From: Escherichia phage vB-Eco-KMB42
Sequence record: OR539221.1
Length of the DNA stretch: 64,000 nucleotides
Reading direction: 5' to 3' (one strand)
A program made the position numbers and the translations under genes. Each line of letters starts with the position of its first letter. Within the stretch, counting starts at the first letter, position 1. This document shows, one piece after another, positions 2,670 to 7,924 of the stretch. Below the pieces are notes generated by a model, which worked only from the letters and a program-made list of their open reading frames with translations, ran no database searches and had not been told where the DNA came from.

Positions 2670-3674
2670 TTAGCTCACCAACTCAATCCAAGCCGGACGA
2701 AGTACATCTTGTACCATTTTAACTAATTCCTTTTTAACCAAAGAAGGATTATCCGCTTGAGTTAGAGTAATACCTTCACGAGAAGTTTCTTCCAAAATAT
2801 CTTGAACAGTTAGTCCCATCACCTTTCCAAAATCTTTTGGACCAATTTCGCCAATTTTAGAAATAACGTTATTTACTCGGTTCAGTGTAACGTAACAAGC
2901 TAAAATCCCCACCAATTTGTTATCAGCTTCTGACAATTCAACTTTAGCTTTAATAGGCTTATCAGACTTTTTCTTTTCACTAAATTTAGAATTCTTACAT
3001 TTGATGGCTACACGATTTCCATTATGAAGCCAAGAAGGATAACAAGGTTTCAATACATATCCTTCAGCAGTAAATACTTCGCCTTTTGCTTCGGCATTCC
3101 AAACGCATTTATTTGCATCAACTAATCCAGCATGGTCTACTGTAAAATTATAATCTTGGACGACAGAATCTAAATCATTTGGCAATTTAATAAGCTCTTC
3201 AAATTTACCGCGACCTAAAAGTGGAGCCATTTTAAATTTAAATGTATTACAGAATGATTCCATCATATAATCATCGACATAAGTCACATCACCACTTTCT
3301 GTAGTGACAATAATGTCAAATACATAAAAATCTTTATCACCATAATCAACATTCTTCTGAATGCCAGGTCCAGCGAATTCGCCAAAGACTTGATAAGATA
3401 CAACCGCTGAAGTTTCCATAATATCTTGTACTGCTTTAATGGAATCAGCGTAATTCTTTAGAATAATTTCATACCCAAAGAAATCTTCAGCAGGAAGAAT
3501 CGGTCCAGTACGTTTAGCGCAAGTTACTTTATCACGCCCAATAATCAATGAGAAATTTGTGCCGTGAATCTTTTCACGAGCTACCCATTCGCCGCCAGTC
3601 AATCCTAAGCTATAAAGTTTTTCAATAAATTTAGAGTTGTAATGATTTTCAAGACTGCTATACTTTTTAAACAT
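2670..3674 (-). CDS. rnlB: RNA ligase 2 (334 aa)
   Basis: N-terminus [13 protein letters not shown] and KIHGTN nucleotidyltransferase motif; T4 Rnl2 length. Confidence 0.92.
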
Positions 3675-3683
3675 AATTAATCC

Positions 3684-3962
3684 TCAAAATGTAATTTCTA
3701 ACCAATCACCATCACGCTGATCACTATTGACTTTAAAGCTGAATCCTTCTTTTCTCAGCCAATCACCAATTTCTTCAGTAATCAATTTATCACGAGCAGT
3801 ACAATAATAACTAAAATATGTTTTACCTTGTTCAGCTGCTTTATTAGCAAGTTCCGAAAAATCTTTAATAAAACACTCTAGTTTAAACTGTTTGCTTTTA
3901 AGTGCTTTTTCGCGTAATTGATTAGCAAAAGATTCATTTTCATAAAGATCATACTGTTCCAT
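3684..3962 (-). CDS. hypothetical protein (T4 24.2 position)
   Basis: ORF in syntenic position, tightly packed with neighbours. Confidence 0.6.
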   Translation of the reverse strand: MEQYDLYENESFANQLREKALKSKQFKLECFIKDFSELANKAAEQGKTYFSYYCTARDKLITEEIGDWLRKEGFSFKVNSDQRDGDWLEITF

Positions 3963-4164
3963 TTTTCACCTTTTTATTAATATGTCTTTTTCTATAGACA
4001 ACTTTTTCTCGAGTCTCAAATTTATTCTTAGCAGTCATAGCTCGAGCCCATAATACAGCCACTTCTTTTGCCTGTAAGTTCAATTCACGAGCAATTTCAA
4101 TGAATGACTTTCCAGACTCATGAAGAGTAAACACCACAACCTCAGTTCTCATAATCAATCTCAT
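3949..4164 (-). CDS. hypothetical protein (T4 24.3 position)
   Basis: ORF in syntenic position; sigma70-like -10 TATATAAT upstream. Confidence 0.55.
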   Translation of the reverse strand: MRLIMRTEVVVFTLHESGKSFIEIARELNLQAKEVAVLWARAMTAKNKFETREKVVYRKRHINKKVKNGTV

Positions 4165-4253: not shown

Positions 4254-5672
4254 TTATGGATAGGTATAGATGATACCAGTTTCTAAAGCAGTTTTATGAA
4301 TGATGTATCCATTGCGCGATTCTTGGACATCAACTTCTGGATAGTCTTTCATCATCTTCTGAAGCGTATAACGATGCAAGTAGTACTTACTATCTGGGTC
4401 GTCAGTTTTCCAATCTTTACCTTCTTCAGTCATTTTTTGGATTTCATCCATAACCCACCAACCGCACCAGATATAAGCTGAAGTACGGTGCGGAAGAGGA
4501 TGAACATAAGGCAATTCACCTTCTGGTTCTGGAGCAACTTTATCAGTCACTTGAACTTGACCTGTTGTTTTAACTGTTTTGCTATCATAATCAGTTGCTG
4601 TAACGACAGCAGTAACTTCAATAGTTTGACTTCCAACAGATGAGGTATCGACAGTATATACGTTAGTTGACCCTTCTACAGGAGAAGAATCTTTCTTCCA
4701 CGAGTAAGTAATTTGTGCTTCTTCTGGAGCATCCGTAACATTAGCCGTAAATGTAGCTGAAGCATCTTGCTGAACGTTAATAGAAGGAGGAGTCAATGTA
4801 ACCTGTGGATTCATTGTCTTCTTATTAACTGTCAATGACACTTCATTAGAAGTAACTTCCTTTTCATTGTAATTTTCTGCTGTTACTTGGGCTACGCATT
4901 TAATTCTTTTTACTCCACTTGTAGTTGGAGTATAGCTAAATGTAGAGTTAGTTTCTCCACCAACTTGTGAATCATCTACATACCACTGATACGTAGCAGA
5001 TGCTCCATCAGGTTGAGAAGCTAAGGCAGCAGTAAATTGAACTGGGGTTCCAATTACTCCAGCTGAAGGACTATCGGGAGTTACTGCCAAAGTAGTTGTC
5101 TGTGTCTTTTTATTAACAGTCAGTGACACTTCATTAGAAGTAACTTCTTTTGCATCATAATCTGTCGCGGTTACTTGAGCTACACACTTAATTGTTTTAA
5201 CTCCACTTGTGTCAGGAGTGTAATTGAATGTAGCGCTAGTCGCTTCGCTCACAGGAGAACTGTCAACGTACCATTGATACGTAGCAGATGCGCCTGATGG
5301 CTGCGAAGCCAAAGCAGCGGTAAATTTAACAGCTGTTCCAATCACTCCAGCCGCAGGACTAGCAGGAGTTACGGCTAAGGTAGTCGTCTGTGTCTTATTT
5401 TTAACTGTGATAGTTGTTGTCGCTTCAGCCGTTTCCGGGCCTCCTTCAGAAAGTGTATTTGTTGCAACTACTTTAATAGTCTTTTGACCAGCAGGACCTT
5501 TTAATACATAATCAAAAGTTGCTTCAGACCCATCTTGTGGAGCATTATCTACACTCCAAGCATAAGTAATAGTTCCACCTCCAGTTTCACCACTGGGTGC
5601 AGCAGTAAACTGCTTGGTTTCATCAATAACTCCTGACGGTGTTTTAGGAGTTATATCAACTGTAAAAGCCAT
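4254..5672 (-). CDS. hoc: Hoc outer capsid decoration protein, 472 aa with tandemly duplicated Ig-like domain
   Basis: N-terminus MAFTVDITPKTP and C-terminal capsid-binding region match T4 Hoc; internal 96-aa repeat. Confidence 0.9.
   Translation of the reverse strand: MAFTVDITPKTPSGVIDETKQFTAAPSGETGGGTITYAWSVDNAPQDGSEATFDYVLKGPAGQKTIKVVATNTLSEGGPETAEATTTITVKNKTQTTTLAVTPASPAAGVIGTAVKFTAALASQPSGASATYQWYVDSSPVSEATSATFNYTPDTSGVKTIKCVAQVTATDYDAKEVTSNEVSLTVNKKTQTTTLAVTPDSPSAGVIGTPVQFTAALASQPDGASATYQWYVDDSQVGGETNSTFSYTPTTSGVKRIKCVAQVTAENYNEKEVTSNEVSLTVNKKTMNPQVTLTPPSINVQQDASATFTANVTDAPEEAQITYSWKKDSSPVEGSTNVYTVDTSSVGSQTIEVTAVVTATDYDSKTVKTTGQVQVTDKVAPEPEGELPYVHPLPHRTSAYIWCGWWVMDEIQKMTEEGKDWKTDDPDSKYYLHRYTLQKMMKDYPEVDVQESRNGYIIHKTALETGIIYTYP
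4821..5396 (-). repeat. tandem 288-bp duplication inside hoc encoding two ~80% identical 96-aa Ig-like domains
   Basis: protein segments KTQTTTLAVTP...EVSLTVNK repeated twice. Confidence 0.85.
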
Positions 5673-5681
5673 AAGTTATCC

Positions 5682-6362
5682 TTATTTTAATGTTACGAAA
5701 GAAGAATTGCGTGTTTCACGAATTAAAACTGATCCGTCGCGATTAATGTAATAAATTAAGCTAAACAGAGTTTGGTGTGCTGACGCGTGTTCAAAACTAG
5801 TTGGATGAGATTTCCAATCAGGAGTTTCAGCGATCCATTGATAAATCCACCAAGGAACCGTACAGAATCCTGGATTTTTCCCCAATAATTGAAGATTCGG
5901 GCTAAAGTTTTCCGGAAGAGTAAATACAGACGGCTTTTCAGATTCAATAATCTCAGCTACAGCTTGTTCAAACTTTTCTTCAACAAAAGGAGTGTCTTCA
6001 ATCAAACCATCAGTATTTTCAGGAATTTTATCCGTTTCTACCACTTCAATTTTAACATCAGATTTAACTGGAGAATCAATCAGAAGTGCTGCTTCTGGAT
6101 TAACTTCTTCATCGTCATATTTTAATCCCTCTGCAGCATCAGCAGCATCAATTAAGTCTTTAATAGATAACCCATCAGTCTCTGGCATAGGTTCACTAGC
6201 GAGCTTCTGGAGGGCTTCTTCAATATCAACAACGATATTATCAAAAGATTTATTCTTTTTGACCTTTATACCAAACTGTTCAGCGTATTCAGCTAATTTA
6301 GCTTTAGCTTCTTTATTATCATCAAGAGCCTTCAGCTCTGCAATATAATCTTTATCTATCAT
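5682..6362 (-). CDS. inh: Inh, inhibitor of prohead protease (226 aa)
   Basis: synteny between hoc and uvsW, T4 Inh size. Confidence 0.8.
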   Translation of the reverse strand: MIDKDYIAELKALDDNKEAKAKLAEYAEQFGIKVKKNKSFDNIVVDIEEALQKLASEPMPETDGLSIKDLIDAADAAEGLKYDDEEVNPEAALLIDSPVKSDVKIEVVETDKIPENTDGLIEDTPFVEEKFEQAVAEIIESEKPSVFTLPENFSPNLQLLGKNPGFCTVPWWIYQWIAETPDWKSHPTSFEHASAHQTLFSLIYYINRDGSVLIRETRNSSFVTLK

Positions 6363-6369
6363 AATATTT

Positions 6370-6390
6370 CCTCAGTATAAATATAGATAT
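6370..6390 (+). promoter_or_regulatory. late promoter (TATAAATA) for uvsW
   Basis: TATAAATA at 6376-6383. Confidence 0.65.
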
Positions 6391-6412
6391 ATTTATTACA
6401 TGGTATTTAGAC

Positions 6413-7924
6413 ATGACTGACATTAAAGTACATTTTTATGATTTTAGTCACGTGAGAATTGATTGTGAAGAAAGTACATTTCATGAACTCCGTGATTTCT
6501 TTAGCTTTGAAGCTGATGGGTATCGTTTTAATCCGAAATACAAATATGGCAACTGGGATGGACGAATCCGTCTTTTAGATTATAATCGTCTTCTTCCATT
6601 CGGCTTAGTCGGGCAAATTAAAAAGTTCTGTGATAACTTTGGCTATAAAGCCTGGATTGACCCACAAATTAACGAAAAAGAAGAATTATCAAGAAAAGAT
6701 TTTGATGAATGGCTTTCTAAATTAGAAATCTATTCAGGAAATAAAAGAATTGAACCACACTGGTATCAAAAAGATGCAGTGTTCGAAGGATTAGTTAATC
6801 GTCGTAGAATTCTTAATCTTCCAACTTCGGCTGGTAAATCTTTAATTCAAGCTTTGCTTGCGCGATATTATTTGGAAAATTATGAAGGTAAAATTCTTAT
6901 CATTGTTCCAACAACTGCTCTGACAACTCAGATGGCTGATGACTTTGTTGATTATCGTTTATTCAGTCACGCAATGATAAAGAAAATTGGTGGCGGAGCA
7001 TCAAAAGATGATAAATATAAAAATGATGCACCAGTCGTTGTTGGTACATGGCAAACTGTAGTAAAACAACCAAAAGAATGGTTCTCACAGTTTGGAATGA
7101 TGATGAATGATGAATGCCATCTTGCTACAGGAAAAAGTATTTCATCTATCATATCAGGTTTAAATAACTGCATGTTCAAATTTGGTCTATCTGGTTCATT
7201 ACGTGATGGCAAAGCCAATATCATGCAGTATGTTGGAATGTTTGGTGAAATATTTAAGCCAGTAACGACTTCTAAATTAATGGAAGATGGGCAAGTAACT
7301 GAGCTAAAAATTAATAGTATTTTTCTTCGCTATCCCGATGAGTTCACTACTAAATTAAAGGGAAAAACTTATCAAGAAGAAATAAAAATTATTACGGGGC
7401 TTAGTAAAAGAAATAAATGGATCGCTAAATTAGCTATTAAGCTTGCGCAAAAAGATGAAAACGCTTTTGTCATGTTTAAACATGTATCGCACGGTAAAGC
7501 TATTTTCGATTTAATTAAAAATGAATACGATAAAGTTTATTACGTATCAGGGGAAGTTGATACCGAAACACGCAATATAATGAAAACCTTAGCTGAAAAT
7601 GGTAAAGGAATAATTATAGTAGCTAGTTATGGTGTATTTTCTACTGGTATTTCAGTTAAAAATCTGCATCACGTTGTTTTAGCGCACGGTGTTAAATCAA
7701 AAATCATTGTATTACAAACAATCGGTCGTGTATTACGTAAGCATGGTTCTAAGACAATAGCAACAGTCTGGGACCTCATAGATGATTGTGGTGTTAAGCC
7801 AAAATCTGCTAATACGAAAAAGAAATATGTTCATTTGAACTATCTTTTAAAACACGGCATTGATCGTATTCAGCGCTACGCAGATGAAAAATTCAATTAC
7901 GTAATGAAAACAGTTAATTTATAA
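6413..7924 (+). CDS. uvsW: UvsW DNA/RNA helicase (503 aa)
   Basis: helicase motifs (Walker A PTSAGKS, DECH box), late promoter TATAAATA 6376-6383. Confidence 0.92.
   Translation: MTDIKVHFYDFSHVRIDCEESTFHELRDFFSFEADGYRFNPKYKYGNWDGRIRLLDYNRLLPFGLVGQIKKFCDNFGYKAWIDPQINEKEELSRKDFDEWLSKLEIYSGNKRIEPHWYQKDAVFEGLVNRRRILNLPTSAGKSLIQALLARYYLENYEGKILIIVPTTALTTQMADDFVDYRLFSHAMIKKIGGGASKDDKYKNDAPVVVGTWQTVVKQPKEWFSQFGMMMNDECHLATGKSISSIISGLNNCMFKFGLSGSLRDGKANIMQYVGMFGEIFKPVTTSKLMEDGQVTELKINSIFLRYPDEFTTKLKGKTYQEEIKIITGLSKRNKWIAKLAIKLAQKDENAFVMFKHVSHGKAIFDLIKNEYDKVYYVSGEVDTETRNIMKTLAENGKGIIIVASYGVFSTGISVKNLHHVVLAHGVKSKIIVLQTIGRVLRKHGSKTIATVWDLIDDCGVKPKSANTKKKYVHLNYLLKHGIDRIQRYADEKFNYVMKTVNL

What the first reader, a model, noticed from the sequence alone, without database searches (positions are those of the whole stretch)
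4821..5396. Hoc carries an extra, recently duplicated Ig-like domain
Hoc here is 472 aa, about 96 aa longer than the 376 aa I recall for T4 Hoc. The excess corresponds to a tandem repeat of a 96-aa Ig-like domain at about 80% amino-acid identity (KTQTTTLAVTP...EVSLTVNK twice). A longer Hoc fibre would project further from the capsid and could alter adherence to mucus or surfaces. The repeat is also a substrate for unequal recombination.
Basis: partly seen in the sequence, partly recalled or inferred. Interest (0 to 1): 0.45.

Follow-up and report, generated by a model that had tools for sequence, protein, structure and literature searches.

The report
Four-Ig Hoc capsid fibre, known variant
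This T4-like phage's head-decoration protein Hoc does carry one more immunoglobulin-like domain than T4's, but the duplication is old. It was annotated in phage RB30 more than twenty years ago, and about a quarter to a third of related phages share it, so it is ordinary.

Summary
It contains two tandem 96-aa Ig-like units, aa 93-188 and 189-284, at window 5396..5109 and 5108..4821. The units are 80.2% identical in protein and 77.4% in DNA. T4 Hoc is 376 aa and has exactly one such unit.

"Recently duplicated" is not supported:
- Synonymous divergence between the two copies is near saturation (dS 1.11, dN/dS 0.11). That is about 4-7 times the dS between this gene and T4 hoc in the flanking domains (0.16-0.26).
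- Each copy has its own orthologue in other phages: 94% and 92% DNA identity to the first and second units of RB27/RB30.

The variant is already known and common. In an evenly spaced sample of 60 of the 678 matching phage records, 17 had the 1419-nt form and 33 the 1131-nt form. Forms with three units (568-570 aa) and four units (664 aa, slur03) also exist.

The units are mosaic between phages. T4's single unit is a patchwork of this phage's two copies, so units are shuffled, gained and lost by recombination. A longer fibre is plausible but was not tested.

The parts
4254..5672 (-). [quoted passage not shown]
   Evidence: ORF list. Match to T4 Hoc 5vf3_Z at E = 4e-223. 93-99% DNA identity to annotated hoc genes of Tequatrovirus phages.
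5397..5672 (-). Ig-like domain 1 (aa 1-92). Carries E29 and G33, the residues reported to bind MUC2 in phage PNJ-6 Hoc.
   Evidence: Alignment to T4 Hoc 1-92. Beta-strand domain at pLDDT 83-93. Residues read from the translation. PMC11150434.
5109..5396 (-). Repeat copy A: Ig-like domain 2a (aa 93-188), the 'first-position' unit type
   Evidence: unit-profile score 190 bits. 100% nt identity to the first unit of 11B_SA_NWU, 94% to RB27/RB30 first unit, 88-90% to the single units of RB14 and ATK47.
4821..5108 (-). Repeat copy B: Ig-like domain 2b (aa 189-284), the T4-D2-like unit
   Evidence: 197 bits. 98% nt identity to the second unit of 11B, 92% to RB27/RB30 second unit, 91% to T4's single unit. 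dS to T4 D2 is 0.23. Pfam PKD hit at aa 195-267.
4536..4820 (-). Ig-like domain 3 (aa 285-379)
   Evidence: Aligns to T4 Hoc 189-283. Pfam Ig_3 / I-set hits at aa 289-356. pLDDT about 90.
4254..4535 (-). C-terminal capsid-binding domain (aa 380-472) and stop codon
   Evidence: One non-synonymous difference from T4 Hoc 284-376 (R396S in T4), dN 0.004, dN/dS 0.017. Function taken from PMC10385173.
4232..4249 (-). GC-rich hairpin (AAGGGGCTTCGGCCCCTT) followed by a T-rich run, 5 nt after the hoc stop codon: likely intrinsic terminator
   Evidence: Pattern scan and sequence. A terminator is annotated at the same place in phage ATK47.
5679..5683 (-). AAGGA Shine-Dalgarno-like motif 6 nt upstream of the hoc ATG, overlapping the inh stop codon
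   Evidence: Sequence read directly. Role inferred.

Best explanation
This is an intact, inherited 'RB30-type' allele of hoc, the dispensable head-decoration fibre of T4-like phages (genus Tequatrovirus). The protein has a conserved C-terminal domain that anchors it at the centre of each major-capsid hexamer. In front of that sits a string of four Ig-like domains (D1, D2a, D2b, D3) where T4 has three. The extra domain is a second copy of the 96-aa D2 unit.

The two copies split long before the sampled Tequatrovirus hoc genes diverged from one another, and both have since been kept under purifying selection. D2 behaves as a cassette. Related phages carry 1, 2, 3 or 4 units, the units are mosaics of one another, and unit number changes by unequal or inter-phage homologous recombination.

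Shown here: the gene, the repeat, its age relative to orthologues, the purifying selection, the four-Ig predicted fold, and the distribution across phages.

Inferred, not shown: the fibre is about one Ig domain (roughly 40 A) longer than T4's 180 A fibre and carries two copies of the D2 NEVSLT motif. This could change reach or valency of glycan and mucin binding.
For: - Identity as hoc: E = 4e-223 to T4 Hoc, with the C-terminal domain nearly identical. The gene lies between inh and 24.3 as in T4-like genomes. The window is 98.5-98.8% identical over 25 kb to Tequatrovirus phages ECP52 and 11B_SA_NWU.
- Repeat.
- Four Ig-like domains: Pfam PKD/Ig hits. The AlphaFold model has four all-beta domains at pLDDT about 90 over residues 1-378. 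Best Foldseek PDB matches are four-Ig strings (Dscam1 Ig1-4, Sidekick Ig1-4, ICAM-5 D1-D4), with RB49 Hoc 3shs also matched.
- Age and selection: A vs B dS 1.11, dN 0.118, omega 0.107, against WIN vs T4 dS of 0.16 (D1), 0.26 (D3) and 0.26 (C-terminal domain). Between unit clades the median dS is 0.96, within clades 0.29 and 0.43.
- Orthology of copies across phages: protein clustering of 170 units and the nt identity matrix.
- Prior knowledge: the RB30 record AY101183 annotates the same repeat and the extra Ig-like domain.
- Prevalence: 17 of 60 evenly sampled records have the 1419-nt form and 33 the 1131-nt form. Of the best 120 protein cluster representatives, 29 are 472 aa and one is 468 aa, all with two units.
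- Other unit numbers: three units in UGKSEcP1/2, EC101, YUEEL01 and others. Four units in slur03, 664 aa.
- Cassette shuffling: T4's single D2 is A-type at nt 1-54, B-type at 63-219 and A-type at 228-274, judged on 65 informative sites. UGKSEcP2 units 1-2 are 100% identical to phiD1 units 1-2, while its unit 3 is 98% identical to slur03 unit 4.
Against: - Fibre length, capsid occupancy and binding properties were not measured. The model's C-terminal domain is low confidence (pLDDT 40-67), and no coordinates were available to measure end-to-end length.
- The direction of change cannot be polarised from 11 DNA sequences in a heavily recombining gene. It could be gain from a one-unit ancestor or loss from a multi-unit ancestor.
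- dS near 1.1 is close to saturation on only about 71 synonymous sites, so the ratio to orthologous dS is approximate.
- MUC2 binding was mapped to D1 in one phage and to D2 in another (PMC11150434, PMC11853027). What a second D2 adds is therefore uncertain.
Confidence: 0.9

Rival explanations
1. Recent in-situ tandem duplication in this phage's own lineage. A T4-like three-Ig hoc duplicated D2 not long ago, and the copies have begun to diverge.
For: The units are tandem, in frame, of equal length (288 nt) and clearly homologous.
Against: - dS between the copies is 1.11, about 4-7 times the dS between this gene and T4 hoc in D1, D3 and the C-terminal domain.
- Copy A is 94% identical to the first unit of RB27/RB30 and copy B is 92% identical to their second unit, while A and B are only 77% identical to each other.
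- Thirty of 31 first-of-two units and 23 of 31 second-of-two units fall in separate clusters.
- The same two-unit gene occurs in dozens of independently isolated phages.
Confidence: 0.03
2. The two-unit arrangement did not arise by duplication followed by slow divergence within one gene. Instead, an unequal crossover occurred between two already diverged hoc alleles of co-infecting phages, one with an A-type D2 and one with a B-type D2. This placed the two allelic domains in tandem. The converse crossovers regenerate one-unit genes such as T4's.
For: - One-unit phages carry either type. At the 15% distance threshold, 45 single units cluster with first-position units and 29 with second-position units.
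- RB14 and ATK47 single units are 88-90% identical to copy A, and T4's is 91% identical to copy B.
- T4's unit has a clean A-to-B switch between nt 54 and 63, as expected of an A/B crossover product.
- T4-type phages recombine intensely in mixed infection. The SegE homing site lies next to hoc, and homing co-converts flanking sequence (PMC2330249).
Against: - The data cannot separate this from an ancient in-situ duplication followed by losses that kept either copy.
- Three- and four-unit genes need further rounds of change either way.
- Only 11 DNA sequences were analysed.
Confidence: 0.35
3. Assembly artefact or decaying gene. The apparent extra domain is a mis-assembled repeat, or hoc here is a dispensable gene drifting toward a pseudogene.
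For: Hoc is non-essential in the laboratory (GenBank note; PMC10385173). Some database records show hoc split into two CDSs.
Against: - The ORF is uninterrupted, with a ribosome-binding motif and a terminator hairpin.
- The two copies differ at 65 of 288 positions, so they cannot be a collapsed or expanded assembly of identical repeats.
- dN/dS is 0.11 between the copies and 0.017 in the C-terminal domain.
- The same 1419-nt gene is found in many independent genomes.
Confidence: 0.01

Closest known systems
Hoc of phage RB30 (GenBank AY101183.1, protein AAM52483.1) and RB27 (KM607000.1)
   Same: 472 aa and a 1419-nt gene, with the same two tandem 96-aa D2 units at the same boundaries. The RB30 record annotates five regions and an 'intragenic repeat [that] led to appearance of additional immunoglobulin-like domain'. 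Whole-gene DNA identity is 93%. Unit A is 94% and unit B 92% identical.
   Different: Only allelic sequence differences of about 7%. The nearest database gene is from phage vB_EcoM_11B_SA_NWU, at 98.8%.
Hoc of phage T4 (376 aa; PDB 5vf3, 8t1x, 8t9r)
   Same: Same family and genomic position. D1, D3 and the capsid-binding domain are collinear (dS 0.16-0.26). The C-terminal domain has a single amino-acid difference.
   Different: T4 has one D2 unit, giving three Ig-like domains. That unit is a mosaic of this phage's two copies: A-type at nt 1-54, B-type at 63-219, A-type at 228-274. T4 also has segE between inh and uvsW, which this window lacks.
Three- and four-unit Hoc variants (UGKSEcP1/2, EC101, YUEEL01 at 568-570 aa; slur03 at 664 aa)
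   Same: Same gene and the same 96-aa D2 cassette in tandem, with the same D1, D3 and C-terminal frame.
   Different: One or two more units than here. The third unit type (UGKSEcP2 unit 3 = slur03 unit 4, 98% identical) is a further lineage, 81-85% identical to copies A and B.
Hoc-like fibres with variable Ig-domain number in other phages (Serratia phage Muldoon with 10 Ig domains; PNJ-9 Hoc lacking D3; RB49 Hoc, PDB 3shs)
   Same: A C-terminal capsid-binding domain plus a linear string of Ig-like domains whose number varies between phages (PMC10385173; PMC11853027). The model matches the RB49 Hoc fold.
   Different: These are distant in sequence (RB49 is about 22% identical to T4 Hoc according to PMC10385173). 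Their domain-number differences are not the D2 cassette polymorphism seen within Tequatrovirus.

Membership tests
Hoc (highly immunogenic outer capsid protein of T4-like phages) | C-terminal capsid-binding domain homologous to T4 Hoc residues about 281-376 | tested here: met
   Residues 380-472 align to T4 Hoc 284-376 with one substitution. dN 0.004, dN/dS 0.017.
Hoc (highly immunogenic outer capsid protein of T4-like phages) | N-terminal linear string of Ig-like domains | tested here: met
   Pfam PKD, Ig_2 and Ig_3 hits. The AlphaFold model has four beta-sandwich domains at pLDDT about 90. Foldseek matches four-Ig strings and RB49 Hoc 3shs.
Hoc (highly immunogenic outer capsid protein of T4-like phages) | Conserved genomic position: rnlB - 24.2 - 24.3 - hoc - inh - uvsW | tested here: met
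   The ORF order in the window matches the annotated neighbours in RB14, RB27, phiD1, ATK47 and UGKSEcP2.
Hoc (highly immunogenic outer capsid protein of T4-like phages) | One monomer bound at the centre of each gp23* hexamer (155 per capsid); dispensable for infectivity | not testable with these tools
   Needs virion proteomics or cryo-EM, and a hoc deletion mutant. Inferred from the near-identical binding domain.
RB30-type four-Ig Hoc allele | 472 aa with two tandem 96-aa D2 units between D1 and D3 | tested here: met
   Same length and unit boundaries as the RB30 record's annotated features. Position-specific orthology of both units.
Recent tandem duplication | Copies are each other's closest relatives, with synonymous divergence lower than between orthologues of related phages | tested here: not met
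   dS A vs B is 1.11, against 0.16-0.26 for WIN vs T4 orthologous domains. Each copy is 92-100% identical to the same-position copy in other phages but only 77% to its neighbour.
Mucus-adherent Hoc (BAM model; PNJ-6 / PNJ-9 type MUC2 binding) | Presence of the residues reported as MUC2/fucose contacts (D1 E29 and G33; D2 S183-L184-T185) | tested here: met
   E29 and G33 are present. NEVSLT is present twice, at 180-185 and 276-281 (translation). The residues come from PMC11150434 and PMC11853027. This shows presence of residues only.
Mucus-adherent Hoc (BAM model; PNJ-6 / PNJ-9 type MUC2 binding) | Demonstrated binding of virions or Hoc to mucin glycans | not testable with these tools
   Requires glycan arrays, co-IP or mucus-adherence assays.

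The most novel reading that the evidence does not exclude
The D2 unit is a copy-number 'dial' (1 to 4 units within one genus) that tunes the length and valency of the capsid fibre. Arrays survive in a hyper-recombinogenic phage only because neighbouring units are kept synonymously diverged: dS is about 1 and no identical run exceeds 24 nt. The canonical three-Ig T4 Hoc would then be a crossover-derived deletion product of a two-unit ancestor rather than the ancestral form.
Probability: 0.25. Interest if true: 0.35.

Novelty: already known. Interest (0 to 1): 0.12.

Why it matters
It matters little as a discovery. The extra Ig-like domain was annotated for RB30 Hoc in a 2002-series GenBank accession, and the literature already notes that Hoc domain number varies. 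The modest value lies in context:

- Hoc is used as a display platform and is implicated in phage adherence to mucus.
- Natural alleles with 1, 2, 3 and 4 D2 units form a ready-made series for testing how fibre length and D2 valency affect mucin binding, immunogenicity and dispersion.
- The mosaic pattern also suggests that T4's 'reference' three-Ig Hoc is just one recombinant among many.

Tried and rejected
- Counting two-unit genes with a junction-specific BLAST query was considered and dropped. The tool joins non-collinear pieces into one 'place', so one-unit genes would also show full coverage, as seen for KIT03. I used an evenly spaced sample of 60 records instead and read the span of each match.
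- A first literature search failed because 'T4' is too short a term.
- Searching the Fokine 2023 paper for 'duplication', 'four Ig' and similar terms found nothing. The relevant passage on variable domain number was found with other terms.
- Naive end-anchored comparison of D1 between UGKSEcP2 and other phages gave meaningless values of about 40% because of a 2-aa indel. I discarded it.
- Scripts failed on file naming, a missing start coordinate and an N in phiD1. They were rerun.
- The AlphaFold model could not be used to measure fibre length, because no coordinates are exposed and the C-terminal domain is low confidence. The length increase is therefore an inference.
- The recent-duplication, assembly-artefact and pseudogene readings were rejected, as set out under the rival explanations.

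Full report
**1. What is there**

The finding lies inside a 472-aa ORF on the minus strand, window 4254..5672. Its neighbours are:
- downstream: the homologues of T4 24.3 (3949..4164), 24.2 (3684..3962) and RNA ligase 2 (2670..3674);
- upstream: inh (5682..6362);
- on the other strand: uvsW (6413..7924).

The first 25 kb of the window is 98.5-98.8% identical to Tequatrovirus phages ECP52 and vB_EcoM_11B_SA_NWU, so this is a T4-like coliphage genome. The ORF matches T4 Hoc (PDB 5vf3_Z, 376 aa) at E = 4e-223.

An AAGGA motif sits 6 nt upstream of the ATG. A GC-rich hairpin followed by a T-run sits 5 nt after the stop codon, where phage ATK47 has an annotated terminator.

**2.

Tandem Repeats Finder gives a 288-nt period with 2.1 copies at 4815..5405. 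Slicing the protein at the two KTQTTTLAVTP motifs gives:

| Copy | Residues | Window coordinates |
|---|---|---|
| A | aa 93-188 | 5396..5109 |
| B | aa 189-284 | 5108..4821 |

The copies share 77 of 96 residues (80.2%) and 223 of 288 bases (77.4%), with no indels. T4 Hoc aligns to residues 1-113 and 201-472, so it lacks exactly one unit. The T4 genome copy is 1131 nt.

**3. The extra unit is a folded Ig-like domain**

- Pfam PKD, Ig_2 and Ig_3 models hit the repeat units and D3.
- An AlphaFold model built on a 66-sequence alignment shows four all-beta domains over residues 1-378 at pLDDT about 90. The C-terminal domain is poorly modelled (pLDDT 40-67), probably because the alignment is shallow.
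- The best Foldseek matches in the PDB are crystal structures of four consecutive Ig domains: Dscam1 Ig1-4, Sidekick Ig1-4 and ICAM-5 D1-D4. The three Ig domains of RB49 Hoc (3shs) are also matched.

**4. The duplication is not recent**

Nei-Gojobori estimates:

| Comparison | dS | dN | dN/dS |
|---|---|---|---|
| Copy A vs copy B (this window) | 1.11 | 0.118 | 0.107 |
| D1, window vs T4 | 0.16 | 0.045 | 0.274 |
| D3, window vs T4 | 0.26 | 0.081 | 0.313 |
| C-terminal domain, window vs T4 | 0.26 | 0.004 | 0.017 |
| Copy B vs T4 D2 | 0.23 | 0.057 | 0.252 |
| Copy A vs T4 D2 | 0.68 | 0.108 | 0.159 |

The A-versus-B figure rests on 34 synonymous and 19 non-synonymous codon differences.

Across 11 phages, D2 units form a 'first-position' clade and a second, more heterogeneous group. 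Median dS is 0.96 between them and 0.29 and 0.43 within them. The within-group values are comparable to orthologous D3 (0.32) and the C-terminal domain (0.19).

Copy A is 100% identical to the first unit of 11B_SA_NWU and 94% to that of RB27/RB30. Copy B is 98% and 92% identical to their second units. A and B are only 77% identical to each other.

The same picture appears at the protein level for 170 units from 121 Hoc proteins. Thirty of 31 first-of-two units fall in one cluster and 23 of 31 second-of-two units in another.

The two copies therefore separated well before the sampled hoc genes diverged, and both are under purifying selection.

**5. It is already known and common**

Megablast of the gene finds 678 phage records. 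In an evenly spaced sample of 60 of them, 17 have a hoc span of about 1419 nt and 33 a span of 1131 nt. That puts the four-Ig allele in roughly a quarter to a third of these phages, including RB27, ECO4, PhiZZ30, Sf23 and phiD1.

Among the best 120 cluster representatives in the protein database, length and unit number correspond exactly:

| Length | D2 units | Representatives |
|---|---|---|
| 365-378 aa | 1 | 81 |
| 468-472 aa | 2 | 30 |
| 567-570 aa | 3 | 9 |

At least 22 rows listed (20 distinct phages) show a span of three or more units (1701-1710 nt). Phage slur03 is annotated with a 664-aa Hoc that I verified as an open frame with four units.

The literature states that Hoc homologues keep a C-terminal binding domain with a variable string of Ig-like domains, up to ten (PMC10385173). 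[quoted passage not shown]

**6. How the polymorphism is generated (partly shown, partly inferred)**

The units are mosaics. At the 65 sites where copies A and B differ, T4's single unit has this pattern:

| nt in unit | Type |
|---|---|
| 1-54 | A |
| 63-219 | B |
| 228-274 | A |
| 279 and 288 | B |

The first switch is what an unequal A/B crossover would produce. RB14 and ATK47 carry mostly A-type single units, and ESh17 shows a B-A-B pattern.

UGKSEcP2 (three units) has units 1-2 identical to those of phiD1 (two units). Its third unit is 98% identical to slur03's fourth. This points to a recent change in unit number by exchange between phages.

Within this phage, the longest perfectly identical run between A and B is only 24 nt, and the next is 17 nt. 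From my own knowledge, T4 recombination falls off steeply below about 50 bp of homology.

I could not decide whether the two-unit state is ancestral or arose by crossover between diverged alleles.

**7. Function**

Shown: the capsid-binding domain is almost identical to T4's, so the protein should decorate hexamer centres as in T4.

Inferred: one extra Ig domain adds roughly 40 A to the 180-A T4 fibre described in PMC10385173.

The residues reported to contact fucosylated MUC2 are all present. These are E29 and G33 in D1 of PNJ-6 Hoc (PMC11150434) and S183-L184-T185 in D2 of PNJ-9 Hoc (PMC11853027). The NEVSLT motif occurs twice here, at 180-185 and 276-281. Whether that changes adherence is untested, and the two published mappings disagree on which domain matters.

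**8. Verdict**

The feature is a known, widespread allele of a well-studied gene. Novelty: already known. Interest is low.

Noticed in passing
window 6363..6412 (between inh 5682..6362 on the minus strand and uvsW 6413..7924 on the plus strand): The inh-uvsW intergenic region is only 50 nt, so the homing-endonuclease gene segE that T4 carries here is absent, as reported for RB30 and RB52. SegE homing from a co-infecting T4 co-converts flanking sequence and could carry hoc alleles along with it (PMC2330249).
   Followed up: partly
L008 (LN881728.1, phage slur03) 10..2004: Hoc is annotated as 664 aa and contains four tandem 96-aa D2-type units in an open frame. This is the largest unit number seen here. 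slur08, slur14, FJ1 and Sfk20 gave similar tblastn patterns.
   Followed up: partly
L007 (UGKSEcP2) versus L006 (phiD1) and L008 (slur03), D2 units: UGKSEcP2 units 1-2 are 100% identical in DNA to phiD1 units 1-2. Its third unit is 98% identical to slur03 unit 4. This indicates a very recent change in unit number by exchange between phages.
   Followed up: partly
L002 (T4) hoc nt 277-564 versus window 4821..5396: T4's single D2 is a clean patchwork of this phage's two copies: A-type at nt 1-54, B-type at 63-219, A-type at 228-274. The reference three-Ig Hoc may therefore itself be a crossover product.
   Followed up: partly
Database records UFV09/10/11, UPWr_E2, SfPhi01, FriedrichMiescher, NHEP10 and KNP5: Several phage records show hoc under two CDSs ('Hoc part 1 / part 2', 'capsid and scaffold protein (x2)'). 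In KNP5 the match span stretches to 2072 nt. These could be frameshifts, insertions or sequencing errors in this dispensable gene.
   Followed up: no
Protein clusters P0014, P0019, P0022 and others: Hoc proteins are deposited under bacterial organism names and unrelated product names, for example 'endonuclease [Shigella sonnei]' and 'PKD domain-containing protein [Escherichia coli]'. These are probably phage contigs in bacterial assemblies and mis-annotation.
   Followed up: no
L005 (KT184309.1, phage ATK47, classified Mosigvirus): A phage assigned to a different genus carries a Tequatrovirus-type hoc, 86.5% identical to the window gene, with an A-type single D2. This is consistent with exchange of hoc across genus boundaries or with taxonomic mis-assignment.
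   Followed up: no
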